Notes: generated from the sequence alone by a model not told the origin. DNA of 64,000 nucleotides from a virus (IMGVR_UViG_2857429247_000001:32001-96000), one strand, 5' to 3'; counted from the first letter of the stretch, positions 7,690-48,907 are shown. Numbers and translations: made by a program.

Positions 7690-7768
7690 TTTTCATAGTG
7701 CCTCCGTCCGAGAGCCGTGCGATCTTTCGCTCAGGGCAACGCCCGACTCCGATGGAGACACGATCATG
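7690..7768 (+). promoter_or_regulatory. repeated promoter/leader cassette, copy A
   Basis: TTTCATAGTGCCT...GGGCAACGCCC-GACTCC-GAT-GGAGACA-ATG. Confidence 0.7.
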
Positions 7769-7957
7769 TCCACATACGACATCTGCATCCTGATTTTAGA
7801 GGGCGCCGCCATGCTGGTCGGAGCCGCCATGCTCCCGGGCGGGTTCTTCGTGCAGCGCCTGCAACCGTGGACGGTCGAGCCGGAGGTGCAGTTGCTGCGC
7901 GTCGAGCGCTCCCGGTACGCGGATCCGAGGCCAGCCCGAGACCACGATGTCCTGTGA
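7766..7957 (+). CDS. small membrane protein
   Basis: Strong SD from the cassette; hydrophobic N-terminus. Confidence 0.6.
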   Translation: MSTYDICILILEGAAMLVGAAMLPGGFFVQRLQPWTVEPEVQLLRVERSRYADPRPARDHDVL

Positions 7958-8213
7958 GCCGGCAGACGATCGCCGCGACGAGATCGAGCGGCTGGGCGAT
8001 CAGGTCCGGGGCGCGTGGCGCGCCCTGGAGGATCGCGGCTTCCCGCCGGAGGCGGCCGGGTGGCCGTTCATCGAGCCAGACCTCGGCGCCGCGATCGGTG
8101 CGGCGCTCGATTGCCTCATCCGGACGCGGGAGGACCTGATCCGGCGGCCAACACCGAAAACAACCTGCCCCGCACTGGAAAGACCTTCCCATGAGCAAGC
8201 CGGGGGACGCGCG
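7947..8213 (+). CDS. hypothetical protein, in frame with the downstream interrupted gene
   Basis: ORF 7947 runs without a stop into the ATG at 8214; the boundary is uncertain. Confidence 0.4.
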
Positions 8214-8516
8214 ATGAGCTGGTGGAACCGCAAGACCAAGACGAAGAAGCTCCGCCGGCCCCAGCGCGTGCGGGCGGCCTCCCACCGGTGGGGCTGGTGG
8301 TTCTCATCCGACGCCGAGAACTACAGCGGCCCCTTCCGAACCCGCGAAGACGCCATCGCGACGGCTCGCGCCGAGGACTGCGGCGAGTGGCACAACGTCG
8401 ATGGCGTCGGCCGGTTCTACCTACTGGAGGGCGTCGCGTTGATTGTTCGCTGAGTTACGGTCGAGACGAACGGGTCGTGAACGGTTGCCGCCTCGGAAGA
8501 GCTGCGAGGGTGGCGG

Positions 8517-9086
8517 CTACACCGCTCGTGTGATCCCGGCGAGGGCCATTTCGCGATAGACGGTGGCGCGGCCGAGCCCGACCTGGCGCCCCGCTTCCGT
8601 AGGCGATAGCCCGGCTTGGACGAGTTTCAGGGCGGCCACGACCTTGTCCGGATCGACCGGTTGCCGGCCCGGACGCTTGCCTTTGGCACGGGCCGCCGCG
8701 ATCCCGTCCTTGGTGCGCTCGGCGATCAGCCGCCGCTCGAAGTGGGCGATCGCACCGAAGACGTGGAAGACCAGTTCGCCGGCGGCCGAGCCGGTGTCGA
8801 TCTTCTCCTCCAGGCTCACGAGCGCAATGCCGCGTTCCTTGAGCAGGTTTACGCTCGACAACAGCTCGGCGAGAGAGCGCCCGAGTCGGTCGAGGCGAAC
8901 CACCGCCAGGGTGTCGCCGCGACGCGCGTAGGCGAGGAGTTCGGTCAGGCCGGGCCGGTCCATGCTCTTGCCCGACCGCACGTCGGTGAAGACGCAGATG
9001 GCGCCCGCCCGCTCGAGCCGCAGCGTCTGCCCCGCGACGTCCTGGTCTCCGGTCGACACCCGTGCGTAACCCAGCACGTCGCCCAT
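8517..9086 (-). CDS. tnpR: serine resolvase
   Basis: GYARVST, RPGL, RLDRLGRS, ERRLIAERT, C-terminal HTH. Confidence 0.95.
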   Translation of the reverse strand: MGDVLGYARVSTGDQDVAGQTLRLERAGAICVFTDVRSGKSMDRPGLTELLAYARRGDTLAVVRLDRLGRSLAELLSSVNLLKERGIALVSLEEKIDTGSAAGELVFHVFGAIAHFERRLIAERTKDGIAAARAKGKRPGRQPVDPDKVVAALKLVQAGLSPTEAGRQVGLGRATVYREMALAGITRAV

Positions 9087-9229
9087 GATCTCGTCCCGCA
9101 AACGTCCGTTCTCGGGACGCCCGCCGAGCCGATCCGGCGCAGGCTTCGTTCCCGTCCACTTAATGCGTCCCGTTAAGCATCCGTGTCCACAATGATCCCC
9201 TGCCTTCTCTGGACGGTGGGAGGATCGGG

Positions 9230-13882: not shown

Positions 13883-13961
13883 CCACGGGGGGCATCCACC
13901 GAGCTACCCCTTGACCGTGTCCGAACTAGCCGTCGACGCGTGAATGCGTGAACGGCCTGGA

Positions 13962-14040
13962 TTTCCAAGTGCCTCTATCCAAGGTGCTTGTATAATCCGT
14001 CACAAGGGGCCGCGCCCCACTCGCAGGAGACAAGCTGATG
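13962..14040 (+). promoter_or_regulatory. repeated promoter/leader cassette, copy B
   Basis: TTTCCAAGTGCCT-N16-TATAAT...GGGGCCGCGCCCC-ACTCGC-A-GGAGACA-ATG. Confidence 0.75.
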
Positions 14041-17000
14041 ACCGCCTCGCCCAGCCCCTCGAACGGCGCCGGCAGCCGCCTGGCGCGCGGACTGCGTGCG
14101 ATGCTCGATCAGGGAAGCCAGCTCAATCTGTTCGGGATGTTTGGGGCGGCGGCGCCGGCACCCGAGACCCATCCCGCCAAGGTCGGGCCCGTGTCGGAGC
14201 CGATCACCGCCGCGCCGTTCTATCTCGACGAGGACCGGGCGCTGCCCACATCGTGGAAGGGGAGGGCGCGCGACAACCTCTACGCCATCGAGCTCTCGGC
14301 CGAGATCGTGGCGGCGGGCCGGCCGGCCACGCGGGTGGAGCAGGAGCGCCTGATCCGGTTCACGGGCTTCGGCGCCTCCGACCTCGCCAACGGCGCGTTC
14401 AGGCGCCCGGGCGAGTCGCGTTATCGCGCCGGGTGGGAGGAGATCGGCGCGGAACTGGAGGCGCTCACCAGCCCCGAGGAGCACGCCGCTCTGGCCCAGG
14501 GCACCCAATATGCCCACTTCACGCCCGAGGGCATCGTGCGGGCGATCTGGGCGGCCCTGACGCGCTTCGGCTTCGCCGGCGGGCGCGTCCTCGAGCCGGG
14601 CATCGGCACCGGCCTGTTCCCGGCCCTGATGCCGGCGCAGCTGCACGGCAACGTCCAGATCTTGGGCATCGAGGCGGATCCGGTCACGGCCCGCATCGCC
14701 ACCCTTCTGCGGCCGGACGCCGAGATCCGCGCGGAGGACTTCGCCACCACGCGCCTGCGCGGCGGCTTCGCGCTGGCCATCGGCAATCCGCCCTACTCGA
14801 CGCGGGTGGTGCGCACCGATCCCGCCTACCGGGCGCTCGGCCTGCGCCTGCACGACTATTTCATCTGCAAGGCCGTCGACGCCCTGGCGCCCGGCGGCTT
14901 CGCGGCGTTCGTCACCAGCCAGGGGACGATGGACAAGGCCGAGACCGGCGTGCGCGCGCGGCTCGCCGAGCGGTGCGATCTCCTCGGCGCGATCCGGCTG
15001 CCCGAGGGCGCGTTCAGCGCCACGGCCGGAACCGAGGTCGGCACCGACATCCTGTTCCTGCGCCGCCGCCGCGCGGGGGAGGGGGCCTCCGACGTCGCGT
15101 GGATCGAGACCGAGTCGGCGAACATCGCCCGGGCCGAGCACATCGAGGTCAACCGCTACTTCCTCGACAACCCCGACATGGTGCTGGGCGCCCACGTCGT
15201 GGCGTCCGGGCCGTTCGGGCCGGCCTATGCCTGCCGGGCGATCCCGGGCCTCGACCTCGACGCCGGACTCGCCCGCGCGGTCGCGCTGCTGCCCGCCGAC
15301 CTCGGTGCGCCCGACGCGGAGGAGGAGGGCGAGGCGCCGGCCGCCGAGGCCGTGACGATCTCTTCGGGCCAGAACGAGCGCCTGCGCGAGGGCTCGTTCT
15401 TCGTCGTGGACGACCGCCTGATGCAGGTGATCGACGGCGAGGCGGTCGCGGTGGCGATCAAGGGCAAAGGGACGTCTCTCGCCGGCGGCATCTTCCCGAA
15501 GCACGCGCGGATCATCCGCGACCTCATCCCGATCCGCGACAGCGTGCGGGCGATCCTGGCGCTTCAGGAGAGGCGCGAGCCCTCGTCCGAGGAACAGGCG
15601 CGGCTCGGCGCCCTCTACGACGCGTTCGTCGCGCGGCACGGCTGGATCAACGCGACGACCGTACAGGTGCGCGAGGCGGACGGGGAGGGCGCCCGCACCG
15701 AGACGCACCGCCAGCCGAACCTCGCGCCGTTCCGAGACGATCCCGATTGCTGGCTCGTCGCCTCGATCGAGGATTACGACCTCGAGAGCGACACCGCGAC
15801 CAAGGGCCTGATCTTCCACGGCACCGTGATCGCCCCCGAGCCGCCGGCCGAGATCCGCACCGCGGCCGACGCTCTGGCGCGCTGCCTGCACGACACGGGG
15901 CATGTCGACGTCGACGAGATCGCGCGCCTGCTCGGCCGAACCCGCGCTGCGGCGCTCGACGAACTCGGCCCGGCGCTGTTTCGCGATCCCGAGACCGACC
16001 AGTGGGAGACCGCCGACGCTTACCTGTCGGGGAAGGTGCGAGACAAGCTCGCGGCGGCCATCGGCGCCGCCGACCTCGACCCCAGCTTCCGCCGCAACGT
16101 CGAGGCGCTGGAACTGGTCCAGCCCACCGACATCCCGCCCTCAGACATCACCGCGCGCCTGGGCCAGCCCTGGATCCCGGTCGACGTGATCGAGCGGTTT
16201 CTCGCCGACATGATCCGCGTCCGCAGCCCGGTCCGCCACTATCCGGAAGCGGCGACCTGGGCGGTGAACGAATACGCTTTCGCCTACTGCCCCGAGGCGG
16301 ATCTCCGCTGGGGGACGCACCGCTACGGCGTCGGCAAGCTCGTCCTCGACGCGCTGAACTCCCGCACGCCGCAGATCTTCGACACCGCCTTCGTCGACGG
16401 CCGTGAAACCCGCGAACTGAACGTGCAGGAGACCGAGGCGGCCAAGGAGAAGCTGCAGAACCTGAAAGGCGCCTTCGAGTCCTGGGTCTGGCGCGATCCG
16501 GAGCGGGCCGACCGGCTGTCGCGGCTCTACAACGACACCTTCAACAACCTCGTGGCGCGCCGCTTCGACGGCTCGCACCTGACGCTCCCGGGCTCCTCGG
16601 CCTCGGTGAGCCTGCGCCCGCACCAGAAGCGCGCGATCTGGCGCATGGTGGCGGCCGGTGGCACCTATCTCGCCCACGCGGTCGGCGCGGGTAAGTCCTG
16701 GACCATCGCCGGCGCCATCATGGAGCAGCGCCGCCTGGGCCTGATCTCCAAGGCGATCGTGGCGGTCCCCGGCCACTGCCTCGCGCAGTTCGCCCGCGAG
16801 TTCCTGCACCTCTATCCCCGTGCTCGGATCCTGGTCGCCGACGAGAACAACTTCGCCCGGGACAAGCGCCGCCGCTTCCTCGCCCGCGCGGCCACCGGCG
16901 ATTGGGACGCGATCATCATCACCCACTCGGCGTTCCGGTTCATTGGCCTGCCCGCCGCCTTCGAGCGGCAGATGCTCGAGGAGATGATCGACGAGCACGT

Positions 17001-19149
17001 CGCATTGATCGCGACGGTGGATTGGTCGGACCGGCTCACCATCAAGCAGCTGGAGCGCAAGAAGGAGGCGCTGCGCGACCGGCTGAAGGCGATCAAGCTG
17101 CGCCGCGACGACTTCATGACCTTGGGCGAGATCGGGATCGATCAGATCTACGTCGACGAGGCCCAGGAATTCCGTCGCCTCGCGTTCAGCACGAACCAAT
17201 CCAACCTGAAGGGCATCGACTCGGAGGGCTCCCAGATGGCCTGGGACCTGTTCGCCAAGGCGCGCTACCTGCGCCGGCGCCGCTCCGCGCTGGGCCTCGA
17301 CCACGGCATCGACCGGGCGCTGAACCTCGCCTCCGGCACCCCGATCACCAACACGATCGGCGAGATGTTCACCCTGCAGCGGTTCATGGATCCGGACGGG
17401 CTCGCCGAGCGCGCGCTCCAAGAGTTCGACGCCTGGGCCGCGTCCTTCGGCGAGACCCGCACCGAGCTCGAGTTGCAGCCCTCGGGCCGCTACAAGCAGG
17501 TAACGCGCTTCGCCGAGTTCGTGAATGTGCCGGAGCTGATCAGCCAGTTCCGCGCCTTCGCCGACGTGGTCTCGGCCGAGGACCTGCGCCAGCTCGTGCA
17601 GAGGCCCGACATCGCCGGCGGCAAGCGGCGGATCATCACCGCCCCGGCGACCGAGGCGTTCCGCGGGTATCAGCGCCACCTCGACGAGCGGATCAAGGCG
17701 ATCGAGGCGCGCTCGGGCCGGCCGAAGCCTGGGGACGACATCATCCTGTCGGTGATCGGCGACGGGCGCCACGCCGCGATGGATCTGCGCCTCGTGCTCC
17801 CAGGCCATCCCGACGAGCCGGAGAACAAGCTCAACCGGCTGGTGGCCGAGGTGCACCGCATCCACCTCGCGCACGCCGCGCAGGTCTACCGGCAGCCGGA
17901 CGGCTCGCCCTATGAGCGCCCCGGCGCGAGCCAGATGGTGTTTTCCGACCTCGGCACGCTCAACGCCGAAGCGCGCCGCGGCTTCTCGGCCTATCGCTGG
18001 ATCAAGGGCCGCCTCGTGCAACTCGGCGTGCCGGCCTCCGAGATCGCCTTCGTGCAGGACTACAAGGGCAGCCAGGCCAAGGCCCGACTCTTCGCCGACA
18101 TGCGCGCCGGGAAGGTGCGCATCGTCATCGGCTCGACCAAGAAGATGGGCACGGGCGTGAACGCGCAGAACCGCATGGTGGCGCTGCATCACCTCGACGT
18201 GCCGTGGCTGCCCTCCGACATCGAGCAGCGCGAGGGGCGGATCGACCGCCAGGGCAATCAGAACCCGGTGATCGAGATCCTCGCCTACGCCACCGAGGGC
18301 TCGATGGACGCCACCATGTGGCAGACGAACGAGCGCAAGGCCCGGTTCATCGCGGCCGCGCTCTCCGGCGACCGCTCGATCCGGCGCCTGGAGGATGTCG
18401 GCGAGGGCTCGGCCGATCAGTTCGCGATGGCCAAGGCGATCGCGAGCGGCGATCCGCGCCTGATGCAGAAGGCCGGCCTCGAGGCGGAGATCTCGCGGCT
18501 CGTGCGACTGCGCGACGCCCACCAAGACGAGCAACACTCCCTGCGCGCCCGGGTGCGGACCGCCGAGCGGGCGATCGCCGAGAACACCGCGGCCGCCGCA
18601 GCCCACCGCGCCGACATCGCCCGGCGCGAGCCGGCTGGGGAGGGGTTCCGGGCGGTCGTCGGTGGCCTCACCTTCACCGACCGCACCGAGGCGGGCCGGG
18701 CGCTGCTCAAGGCGCTGCGCGATCTCGAGTTCAAGGTCGCCAATGGCCGGCCCGGTCGTGACCATCGGCGCGACCAGGACGTGGCGGTGGTGCGCGGCTT
18801 CACGGTCCACCACTGGTCGGCCCTGGAGCGGCTCGGCAAGGACAAGGACGTCGCGGTCGGCGAGATCGAGGTGATGATGTCCCATCGCCCGATCAGCCTG
18901 CGGGGCAGCAGCGTGACGCCCGGCGCCGTGCTGTTCGACCAGATCGCCGAGGTGATCGACGGCCTCGACGGCCGGCTGTCGGCGGCCGAGCGGCGCATCG
19001 AGGCGGCGCAGGCCGAGATCGCCCGCGTCCGGCCGATGATCGGCCGGACCTTCGATCTCGAGGGCGAGCTCGTCGAGAAGCGCACGCGGCTTGCCGAGAT
19101 CACCGCGGCGCTGGCGAGCGACGACGTCGAAGAGGCGCGCGCGGCCTGA
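14038..19149 (+). CDS. DarB-like N6-adenine methyltransferase / SNF2 helicase fusion
   Basis: LEPGIGTG and GNPPY (MTase); AHAVGAGKS, VDEAQ, ASGTP, QREGRIDRQGN (helicase). Confidence 0.9.
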   Translation: MTASPSPSNGAGSRLARGLRAMLDQGSQLNLFGMFGAAAPAPETHPAKVGPVSEPITAAPFYLDEDRALPTSWKGRARDNLYAIELSAEIVAAGRPATRVEQERLIRFTGFGASDLANGAFRRPGESRYRAGWEEIGAELEALTSPEEHAALAQGTQYAHFTPEGIVRAIWAALTRFGFAGGRVLEPGIGTGLFPALMPAQLHGNVQILGIEADPVTARIATLLRPDAEIRAEDFATTRLRGGFALAIGNPPYSTRVVRTDPAYRALGLRLHDYFICKAVDALAPGGFAAFVTSQGTMDKAETGVRARLAERCDLLGAIRLPEGAFSATAGTEVGTDILFLRRRRAGEGASDVAWIETESANIARAEHIEVNRYFLDNPDMVLGAHVVASGPFGPAYACRAIPGLDLDAGLARAVALLPADLGAPDAEEEGEAPAAEAVTISSGQNERLREGSFFVVDDRLMQVIDGEAVAVAIKGKGTSLAGGIFPKHARIIRDLIPIRDSVRAILALQERREPSSEEQARLGALYDAFVARHGWINATTVQVREADGEGARTETHRQPNLAPFRDDPDCWLVASIEDYDLESDTATKGLIFHGTVIAPEPPAEIRTAADALARCLHDTGHVDVDEIARLLGRTRAAALDELGPALFRDPETDQWETADAYLSGKVRDKLAAAIGAADLDPSFRRNVEALELVQPTDIPPSDITARLGQPWIPVDVIERFLADMIRVRSPVRHYPEAATWAVNEYAFAYCPEADLRWGTHRYGVGKLVLDALNSRTPQIFDTAFVDGRETRELNVQETEAAKEKLQNLKGAFESWVWRDPERADRLSRLYNDTFNNLVARRFDGSHLTLPGSSASVSLRPHQKRAIWRMVAAGGTYLAHAVGAGKSWTIAGAIMEQRRLGLISKAIVAVPGHCLAQFAREFLHLYPRARILVADENNFARDKRRRFLARAATGDWDAIIITHSAFRFIGLPAAFERQMLEEMIDEHVALIATVDWSDRLTIKQLERKKEALRDRLKAIKLRRDDFMTLGEIGIDQIYVDEAQEFRRLAFSTNQSNLKGIDSEGSQMAWDLFAKARYLRRRRSALGLDHGIDRALNLASGTPITNTIGEMFTLQRFMDPDGLAERALQEFDAWAASFGETRTELELQPSGRYKQVTRFAEFVNVPELISQFRAFADVVSAEDLRQLVQRPDIAGGKRRIITAPATEAFRGYQRHLDERIKAIEARSGRPKPGDDIILSVIGDGRHAAMDLRLVLPGHPDEPENKLNRLVAEVHRIHLAHAAQVYRQPDGSPYERPGASQMVFSDLGTLNAEARRGFSAYRWIKGRLVQLGVPASEIAFVQDYKGSQAKARLFADMRAGKVRIVIGSTKKMGTGVNAQNRMVALHHLDVPWLPSDIEQREGRIDRQGNQNPVIEILAYATEGSMDATMWQTNERKARFIAAALSGDRSIRRLEDVGEGSADQFAMAKAIASGDPRLMQKAGLEAEISRLVRLRDAHQDEQHSLRARVRTAERAIAENTAAAAAHRADIARREPAGEGFRAVVGGLTFTDRTEAGRALLKALRDLEFKVANGRPGRDHRRDQDVAVVRGFTVHHWSALERLGKDKDVAVGEIEVMMSHRPISLRGSSVTPGAVLFDQIAEVIDGLDGRLSAAERRIEAAQAEIARVRPMIGRTFDLEGELVEKRTRLAEITAALASDDVEEARAA

Positions 19150-19208
19150 CAGTTCACGGGTCGAGCCCTGAACGCCTCGACCCGTGAAAAAGATACGCCC
19201 ACCCTCAT

Positions 19209-19296
19209 TTTCCCTAGTGCCTTATCCAAGCGGCTTGGATAGAAAAGGACATCGGCACCGGGGCAGCGCCCCACTCCCCAGGGAGACACCACCATG
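19209..19296 (+). promoter_or_regulatory. repeated promoter/leader cassette, copy C
   Basis: TTTCCCTAGTGCCT-N17-TAGAAA...GGGCAGCGCCC-C-ACTCCC-CA-GGGAGACA-ATG. Confidence 0.75.
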
Positions 19297-19869
19297 AGCA
19301 ACCGCGGCCCCCTCGCCTGGACCACCACCGTCCTCCGCAGCCTCAAGGACGACCGCGCGGTCCGCGCCGACGTGCGCGAGCAGCGTCTCTCCGGCGGCCG
19401 GTTCAGCTGGCGCGGCGTCTCGAACCGCCGCTTCGTCACCACCCTCAAGCCGCGCGAACTGATGCCCCTCGGCTCGGTCGTCCTGGCTGTCTCCCGCAAC
19501 GAGGTCGGACTCGCCTCCCTGGTCGCGGTCGCCGCCTTCGAGGGCGACGCGGCCGCCTTCCTCGCCTTCCGCGCCCAGGCCCACGCCGCCGGCGCCTGCG
19601 AGCTGCAGATCCACACCCTGGCCGACACCGCCGCCGACCGCGCCGCGATGGTCGCCGACCTGCTCCCCGGCGCGAAGCTGAAGGTCATCGCCGCGCCCGC
19701 GCCGGCCGCCACCGCCGCCTACGACCGCAAGGCGATCATGGCCGCCGCCTGCGCCGCCGCGAAGGCCCGGCGCGCCGAGACCGGGGAGGCCTGGACCGCC
19801 TGCCTCGGACCGGCGCTCAAGGCCGCTTGGAGCGAGGCGCGCGCCGCCCGCGCCGCCGCCCAGCACTGA
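19294..19869 (+). CDS. hypothetical protein
   Basis: Strong SD and very high GC3; C-terminal YDRKAIM...LKAAW motif. Confidence 0.75.
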   Translation: MSNRGPLAWTTTVLRSLKDDRAVRADVREQRLSGGRFSWRGVSNRRFVTTLKPRELMPLGSVVLAVSRNEVGLASLVAVAAFEGDAAAFLAFRAQAHAAGACELQIHTLADTAADRAAMVADLLPGAKLKVIAAPAPAATAAYDRKAIMAAACAAAKARRAETGEAWTACLGPALKAAWSEARAARAAAQH

Positions 19870-19878
19870 GGATCCACG

Positions 19879-20226
19879 ATGCCCGCCCTCCAGCTCAGCT
19901 CCCACGCGGCCGTGCGGCGGCCGTCCGGCTGCATCGTGATCGCCTTCTCGCACGACGGGCGGGCCGAACCGCTGGGGCGGCGCATCGTGGCGGTCCGGAC
20001 GGCCGCGGAGGCGCGCCGCGCCTTCGACGCCTACGCGGCGGAGCTGCGCGCCACCGGCGCCAGCGCCCGGGCCGAGGGCGATCTCCTGCCCGGCGAGCGG
20101 GCGCCGCGCGGCTTCCGCGCCCTGGACCTGCGCACTTATGTGAACCTCGCCGCCTCGGCCGAGGCCGACGCGTTCACGCGTGAAGGCGTGGACCCGTCGA
20201 TAGCTGATCTGGAGGGCCCGTTCTGA
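19879..20226 (+). CDS. hypothetical protein
   Basis: GAGG SD; operonic. Confidence 0.65.
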   Translation: MPALQLSSHAAVRRPSGCIVIAFSHDGRAEPLGRRIVAVRTAAEARRAFDAYAAELRATGASARAEGDLLPGERAPRGFRALDLRTYVNLAASAEADAFTREGVDPSIADLEGPF

Positions 20227-20732
20227 TGGGCGCGCCATTCGTCCTGCCCGCCGGTGCGGGCCTTGAGATCCCCGCGCCCTTCGCGCTGCCCGATTTCGAC
20301 CCGTTCGACCCGAACACCTTCCCAGAGGAGTCGCCGGACGACGCGTGCTTCATCAGCCTGTCGAACGACCACGACCTCCACGCAATCGTGGACCGGCAGG
20401 ACTTCGCGTGGGCGAGGGCGCTCACGTGGTGCCACACCTACGGCTCGGGCGAGTTCGTCGAGCTCTTCCCGGACTACTGGGTCAGCCCGCGGCCGGATCA
20501 CATCTACGCCCGCAACTGCGCCGGCGGCACGACGCGCTGGCTGCACCGCGAGATCCTGATCCGGGCCGAGGGCAAGCCCCGGTTCGCGCGCGCCGTGGGC
20601 GACCATAAGAACGGCAACACCCTGGACTGCCGCCGCCGGAACCTGCGCTGGGCGACCCCCTCGCAGAACGCGCGCAACACCCCGCGCTCGGCCGTCCGCA
20701 AGCGCTTCCTCAAGCAGATGGGGCTCCGATGA
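20226..20732 (+). CDS. HNH endonuclease
   Basis: LHREIL...GDHKNGNTLDCRRRNLRWATPSQNARN. Confidence 0.85.
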   Translation: MGAPFVLPAGAGLEIPAPFALPDFDPFDPNTFPEESPDDACFISLSNDHDLHAIVDRQDFAWARALTWCHTYGSGEFVELFPDYWVSPRPDHIYARNCAGGTTRWLHREILIRAEGKPRFARAVGDHKNGNTLDCRRRNLRWATPSQNARNTPRSAVRKRFLKQMGLR

Positions 20733-21586
20733 TCGACACCTCCACGCTCAAGCCCGTCCAGCGCGACCATTTCCCGAATTATGCGGGCGTCAAGGACATC
20801 GACGACGCCCTGGCGGCCGAGCTGGAGGCGGCCGGCATCACGGTTCACCGGTTCGGCTTCCTCAAGGACGGTCGGCGCGAGGTCGACACCGAGGTAGTGG
20901 GCGATCTCCACGGCTGGGGCTTCCGGCGCGCCTGGTACTATTGGGTCGCCGAAGGTCCTGGCATCGAGTTGGCCGCCGCCGAGAAGCTGCACGCCGCCCA
21001 TGGGCAGCATGTTCGCGTGAACGGCCACTGCGGCTGCCCCAGCCCGCGCGAGCAGTTCAACGGCTTGGCCGTCGGCTCCTACCACGTCGACCGGCCGTCC
21101 GGGTTGAAGGCCCTCGCCGACACGATCCGCGAACTCGTCGAGCGCGCCGCGTCCCCTGCGGGGCCTCGGGACGGAAGCTTTCAGGCGCGCAACGCCGCCT
21201 GGATGGCGAAGGCCTTCGAGGGCGATGCGACCGATCTGGCCGAGCGGGTGGCCCGGTTCGGCGAGGAGTCGCTGGAGCTTCAGCAGGCGCTCGGCCTGAC
21301 GCGCGAGGATGCGCACCGGCTCGTCGACTATGTCTTCGACCGGCCGACCGGCTCACCGGCCACGGAGTTCGGCCAGGCGCATTCGACGCTGGTGCTCCTC
21401 GCCGCCTTCACCGGCCACGACCTGCAGGCCTGCGGGGAAGCTGAACTGGTCCGCGTGTCCACGCCCGAGTTCATCGCGAAGCTGCGGGGCAAGCGAGCGA
21501 CCCGACATGGGCGCGGCCCCCTGCCGGGCTTCTCGGCGCCGGGCACGAGCGGGCCGACAGCCCCTGTGGAGGCGGATCGTGGGTGA
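20729..21586 (+). CDS. two-domain protein with C-terminal MazG-like NTP pyrophosphohydrolase domain
   Basis: ERVARFGEESLELQQA...LVDYVFDRP.G..EFG. Confidence 0.55.
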   Translation: MIDTSTLKPVQRDHFPNYAGVKDIDDALAAELEAAGITVHRFGFLKDGRREVDTEVVGDLHGWGFRRAWYYWVAEGPGIELAAAEKLHAAHGQHVRVNGHCGCPSPREQFNGLAVGSYHVDRPSGLKALADTIRELVERAASPAGPRDGSFQARNAAWMAKAFEGDATDLAERVARFGEESLELQQALGLTREDAHRLVDYVFDRPTGSPATEFGQAHSTLVLLAAFTGHDLQACGEAELVRVSTPEFIAKLRGKRATRHGRGPLPGFSAPGTSGPTAPVEADRG

Positions 21587-21983
21587 GGCGCGCTTCTTCG
21601 TCGTCGACTTCCGTAAGGAATGGACCCGGCAGCCGTACATCACGCTCTGGGGGCCTGACAGCCGCGGCTACAACTGGTCGCTGTCGCACGCCGGCCGGTA
21701 CACCGCCGAGGAACTGGACCGCTCGGCCGGCTATCACACGCGGCGCCGGTACGTCGCCAGCCGGGGCGCCTACGTCGGCCCGTGGGAGCGCTTCGGCGTG
21801 CCCTGCGAGGTTCTGGAGCGCCTTGGCTCCGAGCCCGACACCGAGGGCCGCTGGCGCCTCGAAAATGGCGGTCGCCCCATCGTCCGCAACTCGGCTGCTG
21901 TCCGCAAGCTGCTGACCGCCAAGCGCTACGTGCCGAAGCCCGCCGAAGCCAATCCCCACCCCTTGAGCGGAGGGAACGCATGA
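21579..21983 (+). CDS. hypothetical phage protein
   Basis: GTG start with GGAGG; LWGPDSRGY..L..AGRY. Confidence 0.65.
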   Translation: MGEARFFVVDFRKEWTRQPYITLWGPDSRGYNWSLSHAGRYTAEELDRSAGYHTRRRYVASRGAYVGPWERFGVPCEVLERLGSEPDTEGRWRLENGGRPIVRNSAAVRKLLTAKRYVPKPAEANPHPLSGGNA

Positions 21984-22531
21984 GCGCGGTCATCTCACCC
22001 TGCGGACTGTACCGCTACCGGCTGGAGCGGAGCATCGGAGGCTTCCTGGCCGGGCCGACCGTGGCCTGGATCATGGTCAACCCGTCGACCGCCGACGCCG
22101 AGACGGATGACGCGACGATCCGGAAGGTGATCGGCTTCTCCGAGCGCCTTGGGTTCGGCGACATCGTGGTCGGCAACCTGTTCGCCTTCCGGGCAACGGA
22201 CATCCGAGAACTGCGGACCGCTGCTGACCCCATCGGCCCGTTCGGAGGGGACTACCTTCGCGCGATCATGCGCGGGGCCGAGAAGGTGATCGTCGCCTGG
22301 GGGCCGTGCGCGAAGTTGCCTCGTTGGCTGCGCAGCCGCTGGATGGAAGTCGCCGGCATCGCAGAGGCGAATAGCATCCCGCTTTGGTGCCTCGGCACGG
22401 CGCAGGACGGACATCCGCTGCACCCGCTGATGCTCGGTTACGAGCGCCGGCTGAGCCTCTGGCAGCGGCCCGACCAAGCCTCCGCGCCCACCCCTTCCCC
22501 CGACCCGGCGAGCGGCGAGGCGGCGGTATGA
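21980..22531 (+). CDS. DUF1643 domain protein
   Basis: ISPCGLYRYRL, IMVNPSTAD...DDATIRK, NLFAFRATD, VAWG, PLHPL. Confidence 0.88.
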   Translation: MSAVISPCGLYRYRLERSIGGFLAGPTVAWIMVNPSTADAETDDATIRKVIGFSERLGFGDIVVGNLFAFRATDIRELRTAADPIGPFGGDYLRAIMRGAEKVIVAWGPCAKLPRWLRSRWMEVAGIAEANSIPLWCLGTAQDGHPLHPLMLGYERRLSLWQRPDQASAPTPSPDPASGEAAV

Positions 22532-29688: not shown

Positions 29689-29712
29689 CGGATTTAACCC
29701 GCGCAAACTGGC

Positions 29713-29766
29713 CTTAGCGAGGGCTATTCCGGCCATCCGGAATGGCCTAGGTTTACCCTCGCTAAG
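29713..29766. repeat. nested inverted repeat upstream of the tyrosine recombinase
   Basis: CTTAGCGAGGG...CCCTCGCTAAG enclosing ATTCCGG-CCAT-CCGGAAT. Confidence 0.7.
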
Positions 29767-29824
29767 CGTTAACAAAGATGCGTCAGGCTCAACGGCCCAC
29801 GCCACACCCCGGGAGCCGGATCCG

Positions 29825-34512: not shown

Positions 34513-34613
34513 TGCACCGCCTCTTCGAGGCGCTCGTCTTCAGCCTCGTCCTCCTGCCCCTCGCGCCCGCGGCCATCGTGCTGTGGGTCACGCGTCGAGA
34601 CGTGAACCCGTGA
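34512..34613 (+). CDS. small membrane protein
   Basis: TGATG coupling; hydrophobic. Confidence 0.5.
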   Translation: MHRLFEALVFSLVLLPLAPAAIVLWVTRRDVNP

Positions 34614-34771
34614 ACGGTGTCCTCGTCGCCGCCGCGGTCGCGCTGATCAGCGCGCCGCCCCCGCCTCCGCCCCCGCCGGGGCCGAAGCGACCACCCCTCC
34701 CCATCATCCTGGCAGCCGCGCCCGCGATCATCGATCGCCGCCGGCCGACCTACAGACCGGTGCACTGATCC

Positions 34772-40731: not shown

Positions 40732-40998
40732 TCAGCGAGCGCGGCGCGGGTAAGGCTTGCCGCAGAAGTCGAACTCCGAGGTCACCTCGGCCTTGCGGCA
40801 GTCGAAGCGGGCAGGGTCCCGGGCCGGGATGGTCTCGCCCGCGCAGAACGCCCGCTCCGACGCGGCGCGCGCCAGCCGGCAGGTGATCACCCCGCCGTGC
40901 ACGTTGAGCAGGAAGGTGCCGGGATCGCGCGGGGCTGCCTCGGCCTGGGTGGCGGACAGGGCGGCGATCGCCAGGATCGTGGCGGCGTAACGGGTCAT
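40732..40998 (-). CDS. small secreted Cys-containing protein
   Basis: Signal peptide ending AEA-APR; four Cys; AGGAG SD. Confidence 0.65.
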   Translation of the reverse strand: MTRYAATILAIAALSATQAEAAPRDPGTFLLNVHGGVITCRLARAASERAFCAGETIPARDPARFDCRKAEVTSEFDFCGKPYPRRAR

Positions 40999-41041
40999 GG
41001 GTTGTCTCCTGAGGAGGTGGGCGTAGCCCGGTGGTGGTCTG

Positions 41042-41197
41042 TTATCGGCCGGCTCCGTCTCGATGCACGAATACCCTCGCGCCGAGGCCAAGCATGTTGC
41101 GCAAGTAGGTCTCCTCCTGACTGGCTGCGACGAGCGATCGGAAAGTTTCGACCAGCTTCCAAGAGCCGTTCGCGGGGATGAACACGCCGTAGGTCAT
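41042..41197 (-). CDS. small hypothetical protein (51 aa)
   Basis: Starts directly after cassette copy D. Confidence 0.6.
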   Translation of the reverse strand: MTYGVFIPANGSWKLVETFRSLVAASQEETYLRNMLGLGARVFVHRDGAGR

Positions 41198-41280
41198 CTC
41201 GGTGTCTCCGTCAGGAGGTGGGCGCTGCCCGTTCGATGACTTGAACATACGGCGTACCCAGCCGATAGGCACTAGGGAAT
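41195..41280 (-). promoter_or_regulatory. repeated promoter/leader cassette, copy D
   Basis: TTCCCTAGTGCCT-N17-TATGTT...GGGCAGCGCCC-ACCTCC-TGAC-GGAGACA-ATG. Confidence 0.8.
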
Positions 41281-41351
41281 TTACGCCTGAATGTATGAAA
41301 GCGTGAACTGCCGGGCGAGCCGCACCGCAGAGGGTCGCCTCGCTCGGGAGG

Positions 41352-41826: not shown

Positions 41827-42432
41827 TCAGAGGCCGGCGCAGCGCCGGCGGGCGTCGCGATAGATCAAGTCGGAGAGCCAGGCGTTCCAAGACGGGATGT
41901 AGACGTCCCGGCTCATCTCGACCTGGGTGAAGGTATGGCGGCCGTAGGTCCGCTGGGTCTCGGTGAAGACCACGTCCGAGACGTCGATGTCGCCCAGGTG
42001 CAGCGTAGCCCGCACCTTGTCGAGGGACCGGGTCCGCAGGCCGGCCGACAGCTCGCGGCTCGTGCTGACGCTGCTCGAGCCGAAGTGCACCCGCTCGGCG
42101 CCCTCGACGTGGGGCGGGTTCTCGATGCGCGGGGCGTAACCGCGCGATCCCTCGGTGCCCGGGGTGTAAGCCACCGAGATGGAGCCGTCGGCGCCGAGCC
42201 AGTGATCGATCGAGTAAGCCATGTCGATCGAGCCGTCGAAGCCGCGGCCGCCGTACTGGCTGGTGATGGTCTCGACCATCGCGGTGGTCGGGCCGTCGGT
42301 CCAGCCCACGCGGATCGAGGAGCCGCCGGCGTAACGGTCCGAGCGGACCGTGAAGGTGGTGCGCGGGAACGCGGCCTTGAGGCGGCGGCGGATGATCTTG
42401 GCGACTTCGGCGGTGTCGATGTGGCGGGTCAT
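41827..42432 (-). CDS. LPD29 (large polyvalent protein-associated domain) protein
   Basis: AKIIRRRLKAAFP.T.F.VRS..Y.GGSSI.V.WTDGPT...V..I...Y.G..FDG..D. Confidence 0.75.
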   Translation of the reverse strand: MTRHIDTAEVAKIIRRRLKAAFPRTTFTVRSDRYAGGSSIRVGWTDGPTTAMVETITSQYGGRGFDGSIDMAYSIDHWLGADGSISVAYTPGTEGSRGYAPRIENPPHVEGAERVHFGSSSVSTSRELSAGLRTRSLDKVRATLHLGDIDVSDVVFTETQRTYGRHTFTQVEMSRDVYIPSWNAWLSDLIYRDARRRCAGL

Positions 42433-42515
42433 ATCGGTGTCTCCGTCTGGAGTTGGGCGCTGCCCGTTCGATGACTTGAACATACGGCGTGCCCCGCCGA
42501 GAGGCACTAGGGAAT
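42430..42515 (-). promoter_or_regulatory. repeated promoter/leader cassette, copy E
   Basis: Near-identical to copy D over about 60 bp. Confidence 0.8.
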
Positions 42516-42582
42516 TCACGCCTCGACGCCTGAAAGCGTGAACTTTTTTCGGGCCGCCCTGGCCCGGCTGCTCAGGATCCCC

Positions 42583-46064: not shown

Positions 46065-46157
46065 AGGGGCTTCCCCCCAAGTATCGCTTGACGTAGAACA
46101 CAAAACGAGAACTTCCCGCAGCGGCCCCGGCGATGAACCGGGGCCGTTTCGCATTTC
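46065..46157 (+). promoter_or_regulatory. 26-bp motif plus hairpin, copy 2
   Basis: AGGGGCTTCCCCCCAAGTATCGCTTGACGTA, then hairpin 46122-46146. Confidence 0.7.
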
Positions 46158-46159
46158 AG

Positions 46160-46412
46160 GGACACGTCATGGGTTACCGCAATGCTCTGCCCGGCGGCTC
46201 GTCCGACCAAGGGCCGAGCCGCCACTTCCCGGCCCTCGAAGGGTGCTTCGATCCTCCCGACTACTTCGGGCTGGAGACGACGGTCGGCTTGGTCGACGTA
46301 AGTAGCACGGAGGCTCAGCGTACGGTCGGAGGCGTGAAGCTCCTCTCTGGGCTGCGGCAGAGCAACGTTCTGCGGAAGCGAAGCCGCCGACGCGTATAGT
46401 GGCCCCCGTGCG
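46160..46412 (+). ncRNA. candidate structured non-coding RNA (about 250 nt)
   Basis: Perfect 9-bp closing helix plus nested stems; no credible ORF. Confidence 0.5.
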
Positions 46413-46457
46413 GCTCAGGCCGTGCCGGCCCGGTCTGCCGGGCCGCATGTGCAGCGC

Positions 46458-47261: not shown

Positions 47262-47324
47262 GTGATCATCCTCTCTGGCGTCCTGTGCGTGGCCCGGATC
47301 GCACCCAGGCCACGAGGCGGGACG

Positions 47325-47714
47325 TCAGTCGATGTGTCCGGCGAGACCGCAGAAGCCGACCCGATCACGCTCGCGCCGCGCCTTGAATTCGTCCTCGGGC
47401 TCCAGCCACCGCCCGGCCGCGTCGAAACCCGGCGGCGACCACGTGTAGCTTGCGGGCAGGTCTGCCGGCCGCTCCGGCTCGTTTATCTCGTCCCACGGAG
47501 CGTCCGAGGTCGAGGCGACGTGCGCGCGGCGCGGCTGATGGCTCGGGGTGGCCCAGCGCCAAGCCATGCAGTCGCTGGCGATGCATCGGTGGCTGCCGTG
47601 CACTTGACCATCATACAGCCGGTTTGCCGCGCAGACGGGTTCCCCGGGCTTCTCGCTGTCCGGTGTCCGCGTGAAGGGACACCACATCGCGCGGGCTTGT
47701 GTCTGGGTGTGCAT
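47325..47714 (-). CDS. Cys-rich phage protein
   Basis: WCP..R...CIASDCMAWRW...GFCGLAG. Confidence 0.7.
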   Translation of the reverse strand: MHTQTQARAMWCPFTRTPDSEKPGEPVCAANRLYDGQVHGSHRCIASDCMAWRWATPSHQPRRAHVASTSDAPWDEINEPERPADLPASYTWSPPGFDAAGRWLEPEDEFKARRERDRVGFCGLAGHID

Positions 47715-47743
47715 GGGATCCTCTCGGGGTTCGGCCGTTCTGA

Positions 47744-48136
47744 TCAGGCCGGCAGGCGGTTGAAGGCGGAGAACAGGTCGCGGACGATCGCGATGGTGCG
47801 GTGCGCCTCGCGCAGACGCAGCGCCCGGACGGCGGGGTGCAGGCGCCAGGACGCGGCCGCCTGCCGGCACTCACCGGCGTGGGCGAGCTCCTGCGCGGCG
47901 CGGGCCCGCAGCGGGCGGTCGGCCAGCGTGCGGATGACGATCCCGGCCGGGCGGCCAGTGACCGCCCAGCCGCCGTCGGGCAGCCGCTTCGCCTCGCGCG
48001 TGGCGAAGATCATCGCGAAGTGGCCCTGGTGGGTGAACCGCTCGGTCGCCGAGCGCGGGTCGGCGTCGCGGAGGGCGAGTTCGCGTGCAGCAGTGCGGGT
48101 GCGGCGGTGGGCGGCGTAGTATTCTGCTCGGTTCAT
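47744..48136 (-). CDS. hypothetical protein
   Basis: Preceded by leader copy F (GGGCCACGCCC-GACTCC-GGAG). Confidence 0.65.
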   Translation of the reverse strand: MNRAEYYAAHRRTRTAARELALRDADPRSATERFTHQGHFAMIFATREAKRLPDGGWAVTGRPAGIVIRTLADRPLRARAAQELAHAGECRQAAASWRLHPAVRALRLREAHRTIAIVRDLFSAFNRLPA

Positions 48137-48215
48137 TGTCTCGCTCCGGAGTCGGGCGTGGCCCTGGCGGGATGAAGCGTGCACCCGTGAAGGCATGCAC
48201 GCGTGAACTTGCGGG

Positions 48216-48824
48216 TCAGCGCGCCTTCGGCGTGCCGAAATAGCGGGTGAGGCGGCCTTCCTTCTCGCGGCGCAGGCTGATCTCGGCCTTCTCGCAGGCC
48301 TTCATCGCCATGGGCAGACACGCGGTCCAGCCGACCACCTGGCACAGCTCGTCGTGCGTCGCGCCCGTGGGCCGGCAGATGGTGTCGGCGAGCAGCGCCA
48401 GCTTCGTGCCGGCGCGCAGACCATCCAGGCGCACGGCGCCGGCCGCCGGCGCAGCGGGCGGCAACGTCATCGGCGCGGTGGGCTCCGGCGGCTGGCGGGT
48501 CTCGGGCGTGATCGTCACGTCCTCGAACGCCGCGGCGTCGCTGGCGCGCTGCGCGGCGCTGCGCTCGGCCTCGGCGGCGGCCCGCGCCGCCTCCTGCCGG
48601 CCGACCGCATCGGCCTCGGCCGCCTTGCGCTGCCAGTCCGCGTCGTCCTCCTCGTCCACGGCGTTCGCCTGGACCTCTGGGACGTCGTCGGCCGGGTGTG
48701 CGTCGACCGCCCAGGTCCAGCGGCCGTCGCGCTGCACGAAGTCGAGCGTCTCAGGATTGAGGCCGAGTTGCTTGGCACCGCGGACCGCGCTGCGCTTATC
48801 GGCATAGGTCTTCCTGTTCACCAT
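48216..48824 (-). CDS. DUF3489-domain protein
   Basis: C-terminal R.GTK.A......RP.GAT..EL....GW. Confidence 0.65.
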   Translation of the reverse strand: MVNRKTYADKRSAVRGAKQLGLNPETLDFVQRDGRWTWAVDAHPADDVPEVQANAVDEEDDADWQRKAAEADAVGRQEAARAAAEAERSAAQRASDAAAFEDVTITPETRQPPEPTAPMTLPPAAPAAGAVRLDGLRAGTKLALLADTICRPTGATHDELCQVVGWTACLPMAMKACEKAEISLRREKEGRLTRYFGTPKAR

Positions 48825-48907
48825 CGCTTTGTCTCCCTCGAGTCGGGCGGCGCCCGTTGCGATGGACTGACCATGCCGCAGTCCCGGCCGAGAGGCACTA
48901 GGGAAAT
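48822..48907 (-). promoter_or_regulatory. repeated promoter/leader cassette, copy G
   Basis: TTTCCCTAGTGCCT-N18-CATGGT...GGGCGCCGCCC-GACTCG-AG-GGAGACA-ATG. Confidence 0.75.

What the first reader, a model, noticed from the sequence alone, without database searches (positions are those of the whole stretch)
7690..48907. Seven-copy promoter/hairpin/RBS cassette defines a dispersed regulon of anti-defence-type genes
Seen: the consensus TTTCCCTAGTGCCT-N16-18-(TATAAT/TATGTT/TAGAAA/CATGGT)...GGGC-N3-GCCC-(G)ACTCC-N1-4-GGAGACA-N4-5-ATG occurs at 7690, 13962 and 19209 (+) and at 41280, 42515 and 48907 (-), with a leader-only copy at about 48166 (-). Downstream genes are the DarB-like methylase-helicase, LPD29, DUF3489, the long early operon and small unknown proteins. 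The ACTCC can pair with GGAG and occlude the RBS. Most copies have a TNNA array immediately upstream. Known: DarB and polyvalent-protein domains are associated with early counter-defence, and T4-type phages have mobile promoter-stem-loop cassettes (PeSL). Inference: an immediate-early regulon with a conserved RNA element (boxB-like, or a translational switch). The unknown genes behind it are strong anti-defence candidates.
Basis: partly seen in the sequence, partly recalled or inferred. Interest (0 to 1): 0.85.

Follow-up and report, generated by a model that had tools for sequence, protein, structure and literature searches.

The report
Phage promoter plus start-site leader cassette
A 113-kb Methylobacterium phage puts the same small control unit (an unusual promoter plus a folded leader that hides the ribosome site and start codon) in front of about ten accessory genes, some of anti-restriction type; repeated control units of this sort are known from other phages, but this leader is in no RNA database.

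Summary
The upstream box occurs at the six stated sites. The leader occurs eight times in the window, not seven, and ten times in the whole 113-kb phage record.

The unit has separable parts:
- GTTCACG/CGTGAAC sites or a half-box repeat
- a box at the -35 position
- a spacer of 17 nt (16 in one copy)
- a -10-like hexamer
- about 6 nt, then CA
- a ~45-nt leader: invariant hairpin H1 (GGGC-NNC-GCCC), hairpin H2 (CUCC/GGAG, holding the Shine-Dalgarno), and probably a closing helix P0 that pairs the 5' end with the AUG.

A related Methylobacterium prophage has 16 leaders and 9-10 box promoters, in front of orthologous genes. Its gene content differs between cassettes, as with T4 PeSLs. The box is lineage-specific (2 of 146 genomes).

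The leader also occurs behind ordinary sigma-70 promoters in other Rhizobiales elements (once before ArdC) and between higB and higA. No Rfam family matches it.

H1 and H2 never vary, so covariation there is uninformative; P0 shows modest covariation. Early timing, anti-defence function of the unknown genes and a boxB-like role are untested or unsupported.

This scan has noted similar cassettes on other DNA, but not this sequence. Verdict: new variant of a known kind.

The parts
7653..7768 (+). Cassette 1. GTTCACG inverted repeat 7653-7688; box 7690-7703; -10-like GATCTT 7721-7726; H1 7734-7744; H2 7747-7757 (GGAG 7754-7757); ATG 7766.
7766..8453 (+). Downstream genes: a 63-aa hydrophobic peptide (7766-7957) and an overlapping 168-aa ORF (7947-8453). 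No family match. The 63-aa gene has a leader-bearing ortholog in the related prophage (L192).
13939..14040 (+). Cassette 2. Tandem CGTGAA sites at 13939 and 13947; variant box 13961-13974; 16-nt spacer holding a CAAG-GTG-CTTG dyad; TATAAT 13991-13996; H1 14007-14017; H2 14020-14029; ATG 14038.
14038..19149 (+). DarB-like N6-methylase plus SNF2/ResIII helicase, 1703 aa. Its ortholog in the related prophage (L196) also has the leader.
19153..19296 (+). Cassette 3. GTTCACG inverted repeat 19153-19188; box 19209-19222; spacer dyad TATCCAAG-CGG-CTTGGATA; TAGAAA 19240-19245; H1 19261-19271; H2 19274-19285; ATG 19294.
19294..22531 (+). Start of the long rightward operon: 191-aa unknown (ortholog L176 also has box and leader), 115 aa, HNH endonuclease, 285 aa (PHROG families of unknown function), DUF1643.
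41195..41312 (-). Cassette 4. GTTCACG site at about 41307-41301; box 41280-41267; spacer 41266-41250; TATGTT 41249-41244; CATCG 41237-41233; H1 41230-41220; H2 41217-41206; ATG 41197-41195. Near-identical to cassette 5 over ~125 nt.
40732..41197 (-). 51-aa ORF (41197-41042). Then an 88-aa protein with a signal-peptide-like N-terminus (40998-40732), whose ortholog L185:2150 also has a leader.
42430..42543 (-). Cassette 5. GTTCACG..CGTGAA inverted repeat 42543-42515; box 42515-42502; TATGTT 42484-42479; H1 42465-42455; H2 42452-42441; ATG 42432-42430.
41827..42432 (-). LPD29-domain protein, 201 aa.
48822..48930 (-). Cassette 6. Upstream half-box ATTTCAGGTAGAG forms a direct repeat with the box, about 19 nt apart. 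Box 48906-48893; CATGGT 48875-48870; CCATCGC 48865-48859, which pairs with GCGATGG at the start codon; H1 48855-48845; H2 48842-48833; ATG 48824-48822.
48216..48824 (-). DUF3489-related protein, 202 aa. Orthologs L189:1543 and L212:1915 also have leaders.
48134..48208 (-). Leader-only copy with no box. Two TTCACG sites (48207-48186); H1 48164-48154; CUCC..GAG; ATG 48136-48134.
47744..48136 (-). 130-aa unknown protein. Its ortholog L189:2167 also has a leader.

Best explanation
The cassette is a composite gene-expression unit of a temperate Methylobacterium phage that carries a ParA gene (so possibly plasmid-like). It has two separable modules.

(1) A lineage-specific promoter. The box TTYCYYAGTGCCT sits where a -35 element should be. 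It is followed by 17 nt, a -10-like hexamer (nAnnnT), about 6 nt and a CA start. Because the box does not look like a sigma-70 -35, the promoter is probably read with the help of a phage-encoded DNA-binding factor. The GTTCACG sites or the half-box direct repeat upstream, and the dyads inside the spacer, would be further operator sites.

(2) A ~45-nt leader that is older and more widespread than the box. It has an invariant hairpin H1 (GGGC-NNC-GCCC), two or three nucleotides, then hairpin H2, in which an anti-SD-like (A)CUCC pairs with the Shine-Dalgarno GGAG, then ACA, 3-5 nt and AUG. In most promoter-proximal copies the 5' end (AUCG..) pairs with ..CGAU(G) at the start codon (helix P0) and closes a three-way junction.

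I infer that the leader acts in the mRNA as a translational gate. SD and AUG are locked by weak helices held together by the stable H1. They are opened either by a ribosome finishing the upstream gene (the copies that follow directly on an upstream gene, and the higB-higA copies) or by a factor that recognises the invariant H1. The paired 5' end may also stabilise the mRNA.

The repeated units also serve as homology patches at which related phages swap small accessory genes.

Shown: the copies, their geometry, their conservation, their distribution and the gene swapping. Inferred: the transcription start, the RNA fold in vivo, the gate mechanism, the trans factors and the timing.
For: Copies and significance.

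Promoter:
- 15 box promoters in two phages keep a 17-nt spacer (16 in one) although spacer sequences differ even between orthologs. The hexamer has A2 in 15/15 and T6 in 12/15, then ~6 nt, then CA or CG.
- The same -10/CATCG/leader part follows canonical TTGACG-17-TATGTT or TATATT promoters in other elements.
- Box + 17 nt + TA occurs in only 2 of 146 Methylobacterium genomes, 5 of the 6 hits being in the related prophage.
- A sigma-70 consensus scan does not call the cassettes.

Leader acting at the RNA or translation level:
- Its distance to SD and AUG is fixed, while the distance from the -10 to H1 varies from 7 to 15 nt.
- Four of the ten copies have no box promoter; three of them follow directly on an upstream gene's stop codon.
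- All copies have the orientation of the gene.
- The third loop base is C in 54/55 copies while the first is free, so the site is asymmetric.
- H2 is kept by a compensatory CUCGG/CCGAG in one copy.
- The minimum-energy fold gives the three-way junction in 6/10 copies.
- P0 is longer than in permuted pairings: mean 4.85 against 4.52 +/- 0.12 bp, reached by 7/2000 permutations.
- In the three-helix model 7 pairs show double changes against 3.3 +/- 1.1 (3/500), with 86% of cells paired against 34-47% for slid controls.
- GGAGACA is not the phage's generic RBS: 11 in 113 kb, 8 of them in leaders.
- Between orthologs the leader is 73-94% identical, against 60-78% for the 40 nt before it.

Shuffling.

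Gene classes.
Against: - No transcription start or expression data exist.
- H1 and the core of H2 never vary, so the classical proof of an RNA helix is missing. Invariance could equally mean a DNA site.
- P0 support is modest. An energy-based test was not significant (187 of 1000 permutations). Only one flanking position is individually significant. Three of the P0 pairs were fixed by my choice of anchor. The outer P0 pairs lie upstream of the start site I predict.
- Fold z-scores are weak (-2.5 to 0).
- No activator, sigma factor or RNA-binding protein was identified. The only candidates are a weak OmpR-type winged helix (below the Pfam cut-off), a DnaA-C-like HTH and small unknown proteins.
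- The CM searches of whole genomes scored only a subset of candidates, so copy counts there are lower bounds.
Confidence: 0.55

Rival explanations
1. DNA-level operator. The invariant GGGC-N3-GCCC dyad, 8-20 bp downstream of the start site, is a binding site for a dimeric repressor that blocks RNA polymerase. The CUCC/GGAG complementarity is incidental to a strong RBS.
For: The sequence, not just the pairing, is invariant in 55 distinct copies. Phage regulons controlled by repeated short DNA sites are common (own knowledge). Other dyads occur in and around these promoters.
Against: - The site keeps a fixed distance to SD and AUG, not to the promoter; the -10-to-H1 distance is 7-15 nt.
- It occurs where no promoter is visible, directly after stop codons and between higB and higA.
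- Conservation is asymmetric: loop base 3 is C in 54/55 while base 1 is free.
- The HigA operators in the higBA promoters are GTATC-N-GATAC, a different site.
Confidence: 0.15
2. Mainly a recombination scaffold (PeSL-like mobile regulatory cassette). The similarity among copies is kept by duplication and gene conversion. Its main consequence is modular exchange of accessory genes, and the leader has no specific regulatory role.
For: - Cassettes 4 and 5 are near-identical over ~125 nt, ending exactly at ATG+6, in front of unrelated genes.
- Between the conserved LPD29 and 88-aa genes the two phages carry different small genes, and only the cassettes are shared.
- PeSLs behave this way in T4-type phages (PMC2839356, PMC4122927).
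Against: - Seven cassettes precede orthologous genes in both phages, so most are inherited in place.
- The leader is conserved behind three unrelated promoter types and in chromosomal higBA loci.
- Spacer lengths and the distances to the start codon are under constraint.
- This reading is compatible with the best explanation; it does not exclude it.
Confidence: 0.15
3. Processive antitermination element (boxB/nut-like or put-like). The nascent hairpins load a factor on RNA polymerase, or modify it directly, so that it reads through terminators of the early operons.
For: The hairpins lie just downstream of promoters, and one cassette heads a long operon.
Against: - There are ten copies per genome, most before single short genes.
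- Each copy abuts an SD and start codon.
- Four copies have no box promoter, and three of these follow directly on an upstream gene.
- The leader occurs between higB and higA.
- No boxA-like partner motif stood out in the alignments of the copies, and no N-like protein turned up among the proteins scanned.
- No Rfam antiterminator family matches.
Confidence: 0.05
4. RNA thermometer or stress sensor. The weak H2 and P0 helices melt on heat or other stress and release translation, as in the ROSE and fourU elements of Rhizobiales and enterobacteria.
For: SD and AUG sit in short, weak helices next to a stable clamp. ROSE elements are common in Rhizobiales (own knowledge).
Against: No match to ROSE or other Rfam thermometer families even at permissive thresholds. 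The downstream genes are not heat-shock genes. H1 invariance is not explained.
Confidence: 0.05

Closest known systems
PeSL (promoter-early stem-loop) cassettes of T4-type phages (Arbiol et al. 2010, PMC2839356; Comeau et al. 2014, PMC4122927)
   Same: Short composite regulatory units are repeated in front of small non-essential genes in variable regions. Copies are homogenised (two near-identical over ~125 nt). Related phages differ by gene replacements bounded by the units. Many copies have an inverted repeat just upstream of the promoter, and one of these is called terminator-like.
   Different: The host phage is a temperate, high-GC alphaproteobacterial phage with an integrase and ParA, not a T4-like myovirus. 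The promoter has no sigma-70-like -35. The conserved hairpins lie downstream of the promoter, in the leader next to the RBS. Terminator function and mini-circles are untested.
Start-associated sequences (SAS/ESAS) of Cluster K mycobacteriophages (Pope et al. 2011, PMC3203893)
   Same: An asymmetric conserved sequence that includes the SD lies a few bases upstream of ATG starts of many non-structural genes, in one orientation. It is conserved before orthologous and non-orthologous genes, is almost absent from host genomes, and has an optional extended element upstream. Its function is unknown but presumed translational.
   Different: The sequence is unrelated (SAS is GGGATAGGAGCCC). Here the SD is explicitly paired with an anti-SD-like arm. 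There is a separate invariant hairpin and probably a helix covering the AUG. The element also occurs outside the phage lineage, in other mobile elements and in higBA operons.
Aca2/Aca1-type control of counter-defence operons (5' UTR hairpins bound by HTH regulators; PMC13551039)
   Same: [quoted passage not shown] One regulator can reach several operons. The Aca2 dimer binds two hairpins and represses translation.
   Different: No aca-like regulator gene was found in the cassette operons. No acr genes were recognised. In the higBA loci the DNA operator (GTATC-N-GATAC) differs from the RNA hairpin, so one site does not serve on both DNA and RNA.
Phage Mu com-mom translational control (own knowledge, not checked here)
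   Same: A DNA-modification or anti-restriction gene has its start region locked in a stem-loop, with an adjacent upstream protein-binding site that opens it.
   Different: Mu has a single copy with a known activator (Com). Here there are ten copies and no identified factor.

Membership tests
PeSL cassettes (T4-type phages) | Strong sigma-70-like early promoter | tested here: not met
   A -10-like hexamer and 17-nt spacing are present, but the -35 position holds GTGCCT within the box. The consensus scan does not call any cassette.
PeSL cassettes (T4-type phages) | Adjacent stem-loop that terminates upstream transcription | tested here: inconclusive
   GTTCACG inverted repeats lie just upstream of most boxes. 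Only the 7653-7688 repeat is followed by a T-run and called terminator-like. Others lack a U-tract.
PeSL cassettes (T4-type phages) | Lie in variable regions and bound indels or replacements between related phages | tested here: met
   Between the LPD29 and 88-aa genes the two phages carry different small genes, and the cassettes are the only shared sequence.
PeSL cassettes (T4-type phages) | Formation of excised mini-circles | not testable with these tools
   Needs PCR or deep sequencing of phage DNA.
SAS/ESAS (Cluster K mycobacteriophages) | 13-bp consensus GGGATAGGAGCCC 3-7 bp upstream of the start codon | tested here: not met
   The sequence is different. Only the position, orientation and SD content are shared.
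SAS/ESAS (Cluster K mycobacteriophages) | Repeated, one orientation, before many non-structural genes, rare in host genomes | tested here: met
   There are 10 copies, all in gene orientation, and none in the virion module. 18 of 121 host-genus genomes have a match, nearly all with 1-2 copies. 0 of 150 other genomes of the order have one.
lambda-type nut site (boxA + boxB) | One site downstream of each early promoter, boxA plus a boxB hairpin, N-type protein | tested here: not met
   There are ten copies, four without a box promoter. No boxA-like partner motif stood out in the alignments, and no N-like protein turned up among the proteins scanned. The hairpin abuts the SD.
Aca-controlled counter-defence operon | HTH or RHH aca gene in the operon whose product binds a promoter dyad | tested here: not met
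   No HTH gene was found in the window's cassette operons. A 75-aa leader-driven gene followed by a DnaA-C-like HTH lies outside the window, but nothing links it to the box.
Aca-controlled counter-defence operon | Conserved hairpin(s) in the 5' UTR at the RBS | tested here: met
   H1 and H2 are present in all copies.
Rfam families (any cis-regulatory RNA, ROSE and fourU included) | Covariance-model match | tested here: not met
   There are no matches at gathering score in the window. Nothing falls on the leaders at E up to 5 in five loci.
Canonical sigma-70 promoter | -35 TTGACA-like, 16-18 nt spacer, -10 TATAAT-like | tested here: inconclusive
   The spacer and the -10 fit (A2 15/15, T6 12/15), but the -35 does not. 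The same -10 and leader follow a true TTGACG in other elements.

The most novel reading that the evidence does not exclude
The leader is an undescribed class of compact 'double-lock' cis-regulatory RNA, a three-way junction. The SD is locked in H2, the AUG is locked in P0, and the sequence-invariant H1 serves as the handle for a conserved trans-acting factor. It is shared by counter-defence and establishment genes of Methylobacterium phages and Rhizobiales mobile elements and by higBA antitoxin genes, and it sets when these proteins are made after DNA entry or toxin expression.
Probability: 0.25. Interest if true: 0.7.

Novelty: new variant of a known kind. Interest (0 to 1): 0.5.

Why it matters
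If the model holds, one short signature marks the co-regulated accessory genes of a poorly known group of alphaproteobacterial phages. These include a DarB-like enzyme, LPD29, DUF3489 and about ten unknown small proteins. That gives a rational list for anti-defence screens and a handle (box and H1) for finding the regulators.

The leader is also a candidate new cis-regulatory RNA motif. It links phage accessory genes, an ArdC gene of another element and higBA antitoxin translation.

Cassette-bounded gene swapping extends the PeSL principle from T4-like lytic phages to a temperate, high-GC phage.

Tried and rejected
- Exact box scan of IMG/VR: 12 hits, all in unrelated lower-GC DNA (31-56% GC).
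- Relatives sought through the LPD29 and DUF3489 proteins in viral contigs: none.
- A loose leader pattern in viral contigs: more than 120 mostly chance hits.
- Rfam at gathering and at permissive thresholds: nothing on the leaders.
- Energy-based duplex test for P0: not significant. It was replaced by contiguous-helix and column-wise tests.
- 'Same site on DNA and RNA' for HigA: rejected, because the promoter operators are GTATC-N-GATAC.
- Phage-encoded sigma factor or RNA polymerase: none found among 27 left-arm proteins or the window proteins. The right arm (G000 96-113 kb) was not scanned.
- N4-type hairpin promoter for H1: considered and dropped. There is no giant virion RNA polymerase gene in the window or the left arm, and the leader also occurs in chromosomal higBA loci.
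- sigma-54 reading of the reverse complement of the box: no -12 element and the wrong direction.
- PDB sequence search and ESM Atlas for the 191-aa and 322-aa proteins: nothing informative.
- Literature search for the motif strings and for DUF3489: nothing relevant.
- Order-level and metagenome searches: few further copies.


Full report
**What the window is.** The window is bases 32001-96000 of a 113,385-bp IMG/VR virus record that CheckV estimates as 89% complete. It has about 70% GC.
- Virion and packaging genes: terminase, portal and prohead protease at 49.5-55.8 kb.
- Other phage genes in the window: a tyrosine integrase, QueC, an HNH endonuclease, DUF1643, a DarB-like methylase-helicase, LPD29 and DUF3489.
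- Insertions: a Tn3-family transposon, an IS with a DDE transposase and an IS605-type TnpB.
- Left arm, outside the window: a muramidase, ParA/MipZ, a DnaA-C-like HTH, a weak OmpR-type winged helix, a Gp49/HigB-like toxin with an XRE partner, a C5 methylase and a dNTP diphosphohydrolase.
- No sigma factor or RNA polymerase turned up among the proteins scanned.
- The host genus is almost certainly Methylobacterium, because that is where related copies are found.

**The observation.**
- The 14-nt box is at the six stated places: 6 matches against 1.6 expected, with no shuffle reaching 6.
- The leader pattern GGGC-N3-GCCC..CTC..GAGAC occurs 8 times in the window against 0.01 expected and 10 times in the record.
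- A covariance model built from leader copies finds exactly these ten at 35-60 bits; the next hit scores 13 bits.
- GGAGACA is not a generic RBS of this phage: 11 occurrences in 113 kb, 8 of them in leaders.

**Anatomy.** Reading 5' to 3':
- (a) Either GTTCACG/CGTGAAC half-sites, inverted or tandem at an 8-bp period, or a half-box ATTTC..TAG about 20 bp upstream that forms a direct repeat with the box. The hexamer is over-represented in the record: 126 against about 34.
- (b) The box TTYCYYAGTGCCT.
- (c) A spacer of 17 nt (16 in the 13961 copy), often holding a dyad.
- (d) A hexamer with A at position 2 in 15/15 and T at position 6 in 12/15.
- (e) About 6 nt, then CA or CG.
- (f) H1, (G)GGGC-NNC-GCCC(C).
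- (g) 2-3 nt, then H2, CUC(C)-loop of 3-4 nt-(G)GAG.
- (h) ACA, 3-5 nt, then ATG.

The -10-to-H1 distance varies from 7 to 15 nt. The H1-H2-SD-AUG distances are nearly fixed.

**Relatives.**
- The exact box is not in other IMG/VR contigs.
- The leader pattern hits ten loci in five Methylobacterium species, two loci in a Rhizobium MAG, one in Aquamicrobium and a few viral contigs.
- One Methylobacterium MAG (G002) has 16 leaders on four contigs, with 9-10 box promoters.
- The leaders there precede orthologs of the DarB-like, 191-aa, 88-aa, 63-aa, DUF3489, 130-aa and 75-aa genes. Most cassettes are therefore inherited in place.
- In the genus, 18 of 121 genomes have a match, nearly all with one or two copies.
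- In a sample of the order, 0 of 150 other genomes have one.
- Other elements carry one or two copies, and metagenomes add five good single copies.
- Whole-genome CM searches scored only part of the candidates, so these counts are lower bounds.

**The promoter.**
- Orthologous cassettes have very different spacer sequences but the same spacer length and the same hexamer position. That is what a -35/-10 geometry predicts.
- In other elements (L142, L147, L159, L231) the same hexamer-CATC-leader part follows a canonical TTGACG at 17 nt, with a GATAC/GTATC-type dyad in the spacer. The -10/start/leader part is therefore shared, and the -35/operator part has been replaced in this phage lineage.
- Box + 17 nt + TA occurs in only 2 of 146 Methylobacterium genomes, and five of the six hits are in G002.
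- The sigma-70 scan does not call the cassettes.
- I conclude that this is a factor-dependent promoter family specific to this phage group. The factor is not identified.

**The leader.**
- No Rfam family matches it.
- H1 and the core of H2 are invariant in 55 distinct copies. The invariance points to sequence-specific recognition.
- Five observations favour action in the RNA. The position is fixed relative to SD and AUG but not to the promoter. Some copies follow directly on stop codons or lie between higB and higA. The orientation is strictly that of the gene. The loop is asymmetric (third base C in 54/55). One copy keeps H2 through CUCGG/CCGAG.
- I noticed that the conserved CATCG just after the predicted start is complementary to CGATG at the start codon.
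- Folding gives a three-way junction (P0, H1, H2) in 6 of the 10 copies.
- P0 is longer than in permuted pairings: 4.85 against 4.52 +/- 0.12 bp, reached by 7/2000 permutations; 16 helices of 6 bp or more against about 10 expected.
- The three-helix model on a dedicated alignment has 7 pairs with double changes against 3.3 +/- 1.1 (3/500), with 86% of cells paired against 34-47% for slid controls.
- Against this, the energy-based test was not significant. Only one flanking position stands out by itself. My anchor choice fixes three of the pairs. P0 is therefore suggestive, not proven.

**What lies downstream.**
- In the phage: the DarB-like enzyme, LPD29, DUF3489, a 63-aa membrane peptide, an 88-aa peptide that looks secreted, unknown proteins of 51, 130 and 191 aa, a 322-aa gene after ParA, and a 75-aa gene before the DnaA-C-like HTH.
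- In a viral contig: ArdC (ArdcN plus the polyvalent-protein metallopeptidase domain).
- Thirteen of the 55 distinct copies precede a HigA-type HTH antitoxin, directly after the higB stop codon.
- The weakest CM hits (27-41 bits) precede ordinary metabolic genes and are probably false.
- Counter-defence-type genes are thus well represented, but the set is broader than that. The unknown proteins gave no informative match.

**Cassette behaviour.**
- Cassettes 4 and 5 are near-identical over ~125 nt, from the GTTCACG site to ATG+6, in front of unrelated genes.
- Between the conserved LPD29 and 88-aa genes our phage has a 120-aa gene and [cassette]-51 aa. G002 has three different [cassette]-gene units, plus two more after the 88-aa gene. 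The cassettes are the only shared sequence in the variable stretch.
- This is the behaviour described for PeSLs.

**Comparison with known systems.**
- It works like a PeSL in genome plasticity, but it fails the PeSL definition on promoter type and hairpin position.
- It resembles the SAS/ESAS of Cluster K mycobacteriophages in being a repeated, oriented, start-associated signal of unknown function, but the sequence and predicted structure differ.
- It resembles Aca2/Aca1-controlled operons in having 5' UTR hairpins at the RBS of counter-defence genes. However, no aca-like gene was found in the cassette operons, and the HigA DNA operator differs from H1.
- A boxB-like role is unlikely.
- This scan has reported the same kind of cassette on other DNA (e1-5326025, e1-3776083, e1-5850794, e1-5921613), but not this sequence.

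**Verdict.** The finding is a new variant of a known kind. The part most worth an experiment is the leader, a candidate new cis-regulatory RNA shared by phage accessory genes, an ArdC gene and higBA antitoxins.

Noticed in passing
whole record; in the window e.g. 2794-2805, 4083-4097, 5892-5903, 13939-13953, 20173-20184, 34601-34615: GTTCACG/CGTGAAC sites occur 126 times in 113 kb against about 34 expected. They appear as perfect palindromes (GTTCACGCGTGAAC) or as tandem repeats at an 8-bp period, many of them inside genes. The phage encodes ParA, a 322-aa gene after it and a DnaA-C-like HTH, so these may be centromere, iteron or operator sites.
   Followed up: partly
L177, L178, L181, L197-L204, L206, L208 (Methylobacterium chromosomes): higB-leader-higA loci. 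The leader starts 2-13 nt after the higB stop codon. In one subgroup a covarying helix (ACCGUU/AACGGU against CCACU/AGUGG) pairs the region after the stop codon with the bases just before the higA AUG, which suggests translational coupling. The promoters carry GTATC-N-GATAC dyads.
   Followed up: partly
window 8517-12187: A Tn3-family transposon (resolvase on the - strand, 985-aa TnpA on the + strand) is inserted between the first cassette's small operon and the DarB-like region.
   Followed up: no
window 13975-13990 and 19223-19239; L176: The spacers of cassettes 2 and 3 share a dyad (TATCCAAG-N3-CTTGGATA, shortened in cassette 2). It is conserved in the G002 ortholog with a changed centre. 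Cassettes 4-6 instead have CGGC..GCCG-type dyads. These may be two operator classes within one promoter family.
   Followed up: partly
G000 8615-9277 (-) and window 29435-30850 (+): The record has both a ParA/MipZ partition ATPase and a tyrosine integrase. The prophage may be maintained as a plasmid, as P1 is; P1 is also the source of DarB.
   Followed up: no
G002:C98 12684-13229 (L180, L185): In the related prophage the LPD29 gene reads as a 45-aa ORF, yet DNA homology continues over the rest of the gene. This is either a frameshift or an assembly error in the MAG.
   Followed up: no
window 4187-4600: A phage-encoded Ros/MucR-type zinc-finger regulator (E 2e-38), a family known as a xenogeneic silencer in alphaproteobacteria.
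   Followed up: no
window 7653-7688: A 14-bp-stem inverted repeat made of GTTCACG sites is followed by CTTTTC, which is the start of the box. It is called terminator-like after the TerC-family gene. In this copy the unit therefore looks like terminator plus promoter.
   Followed up: partly
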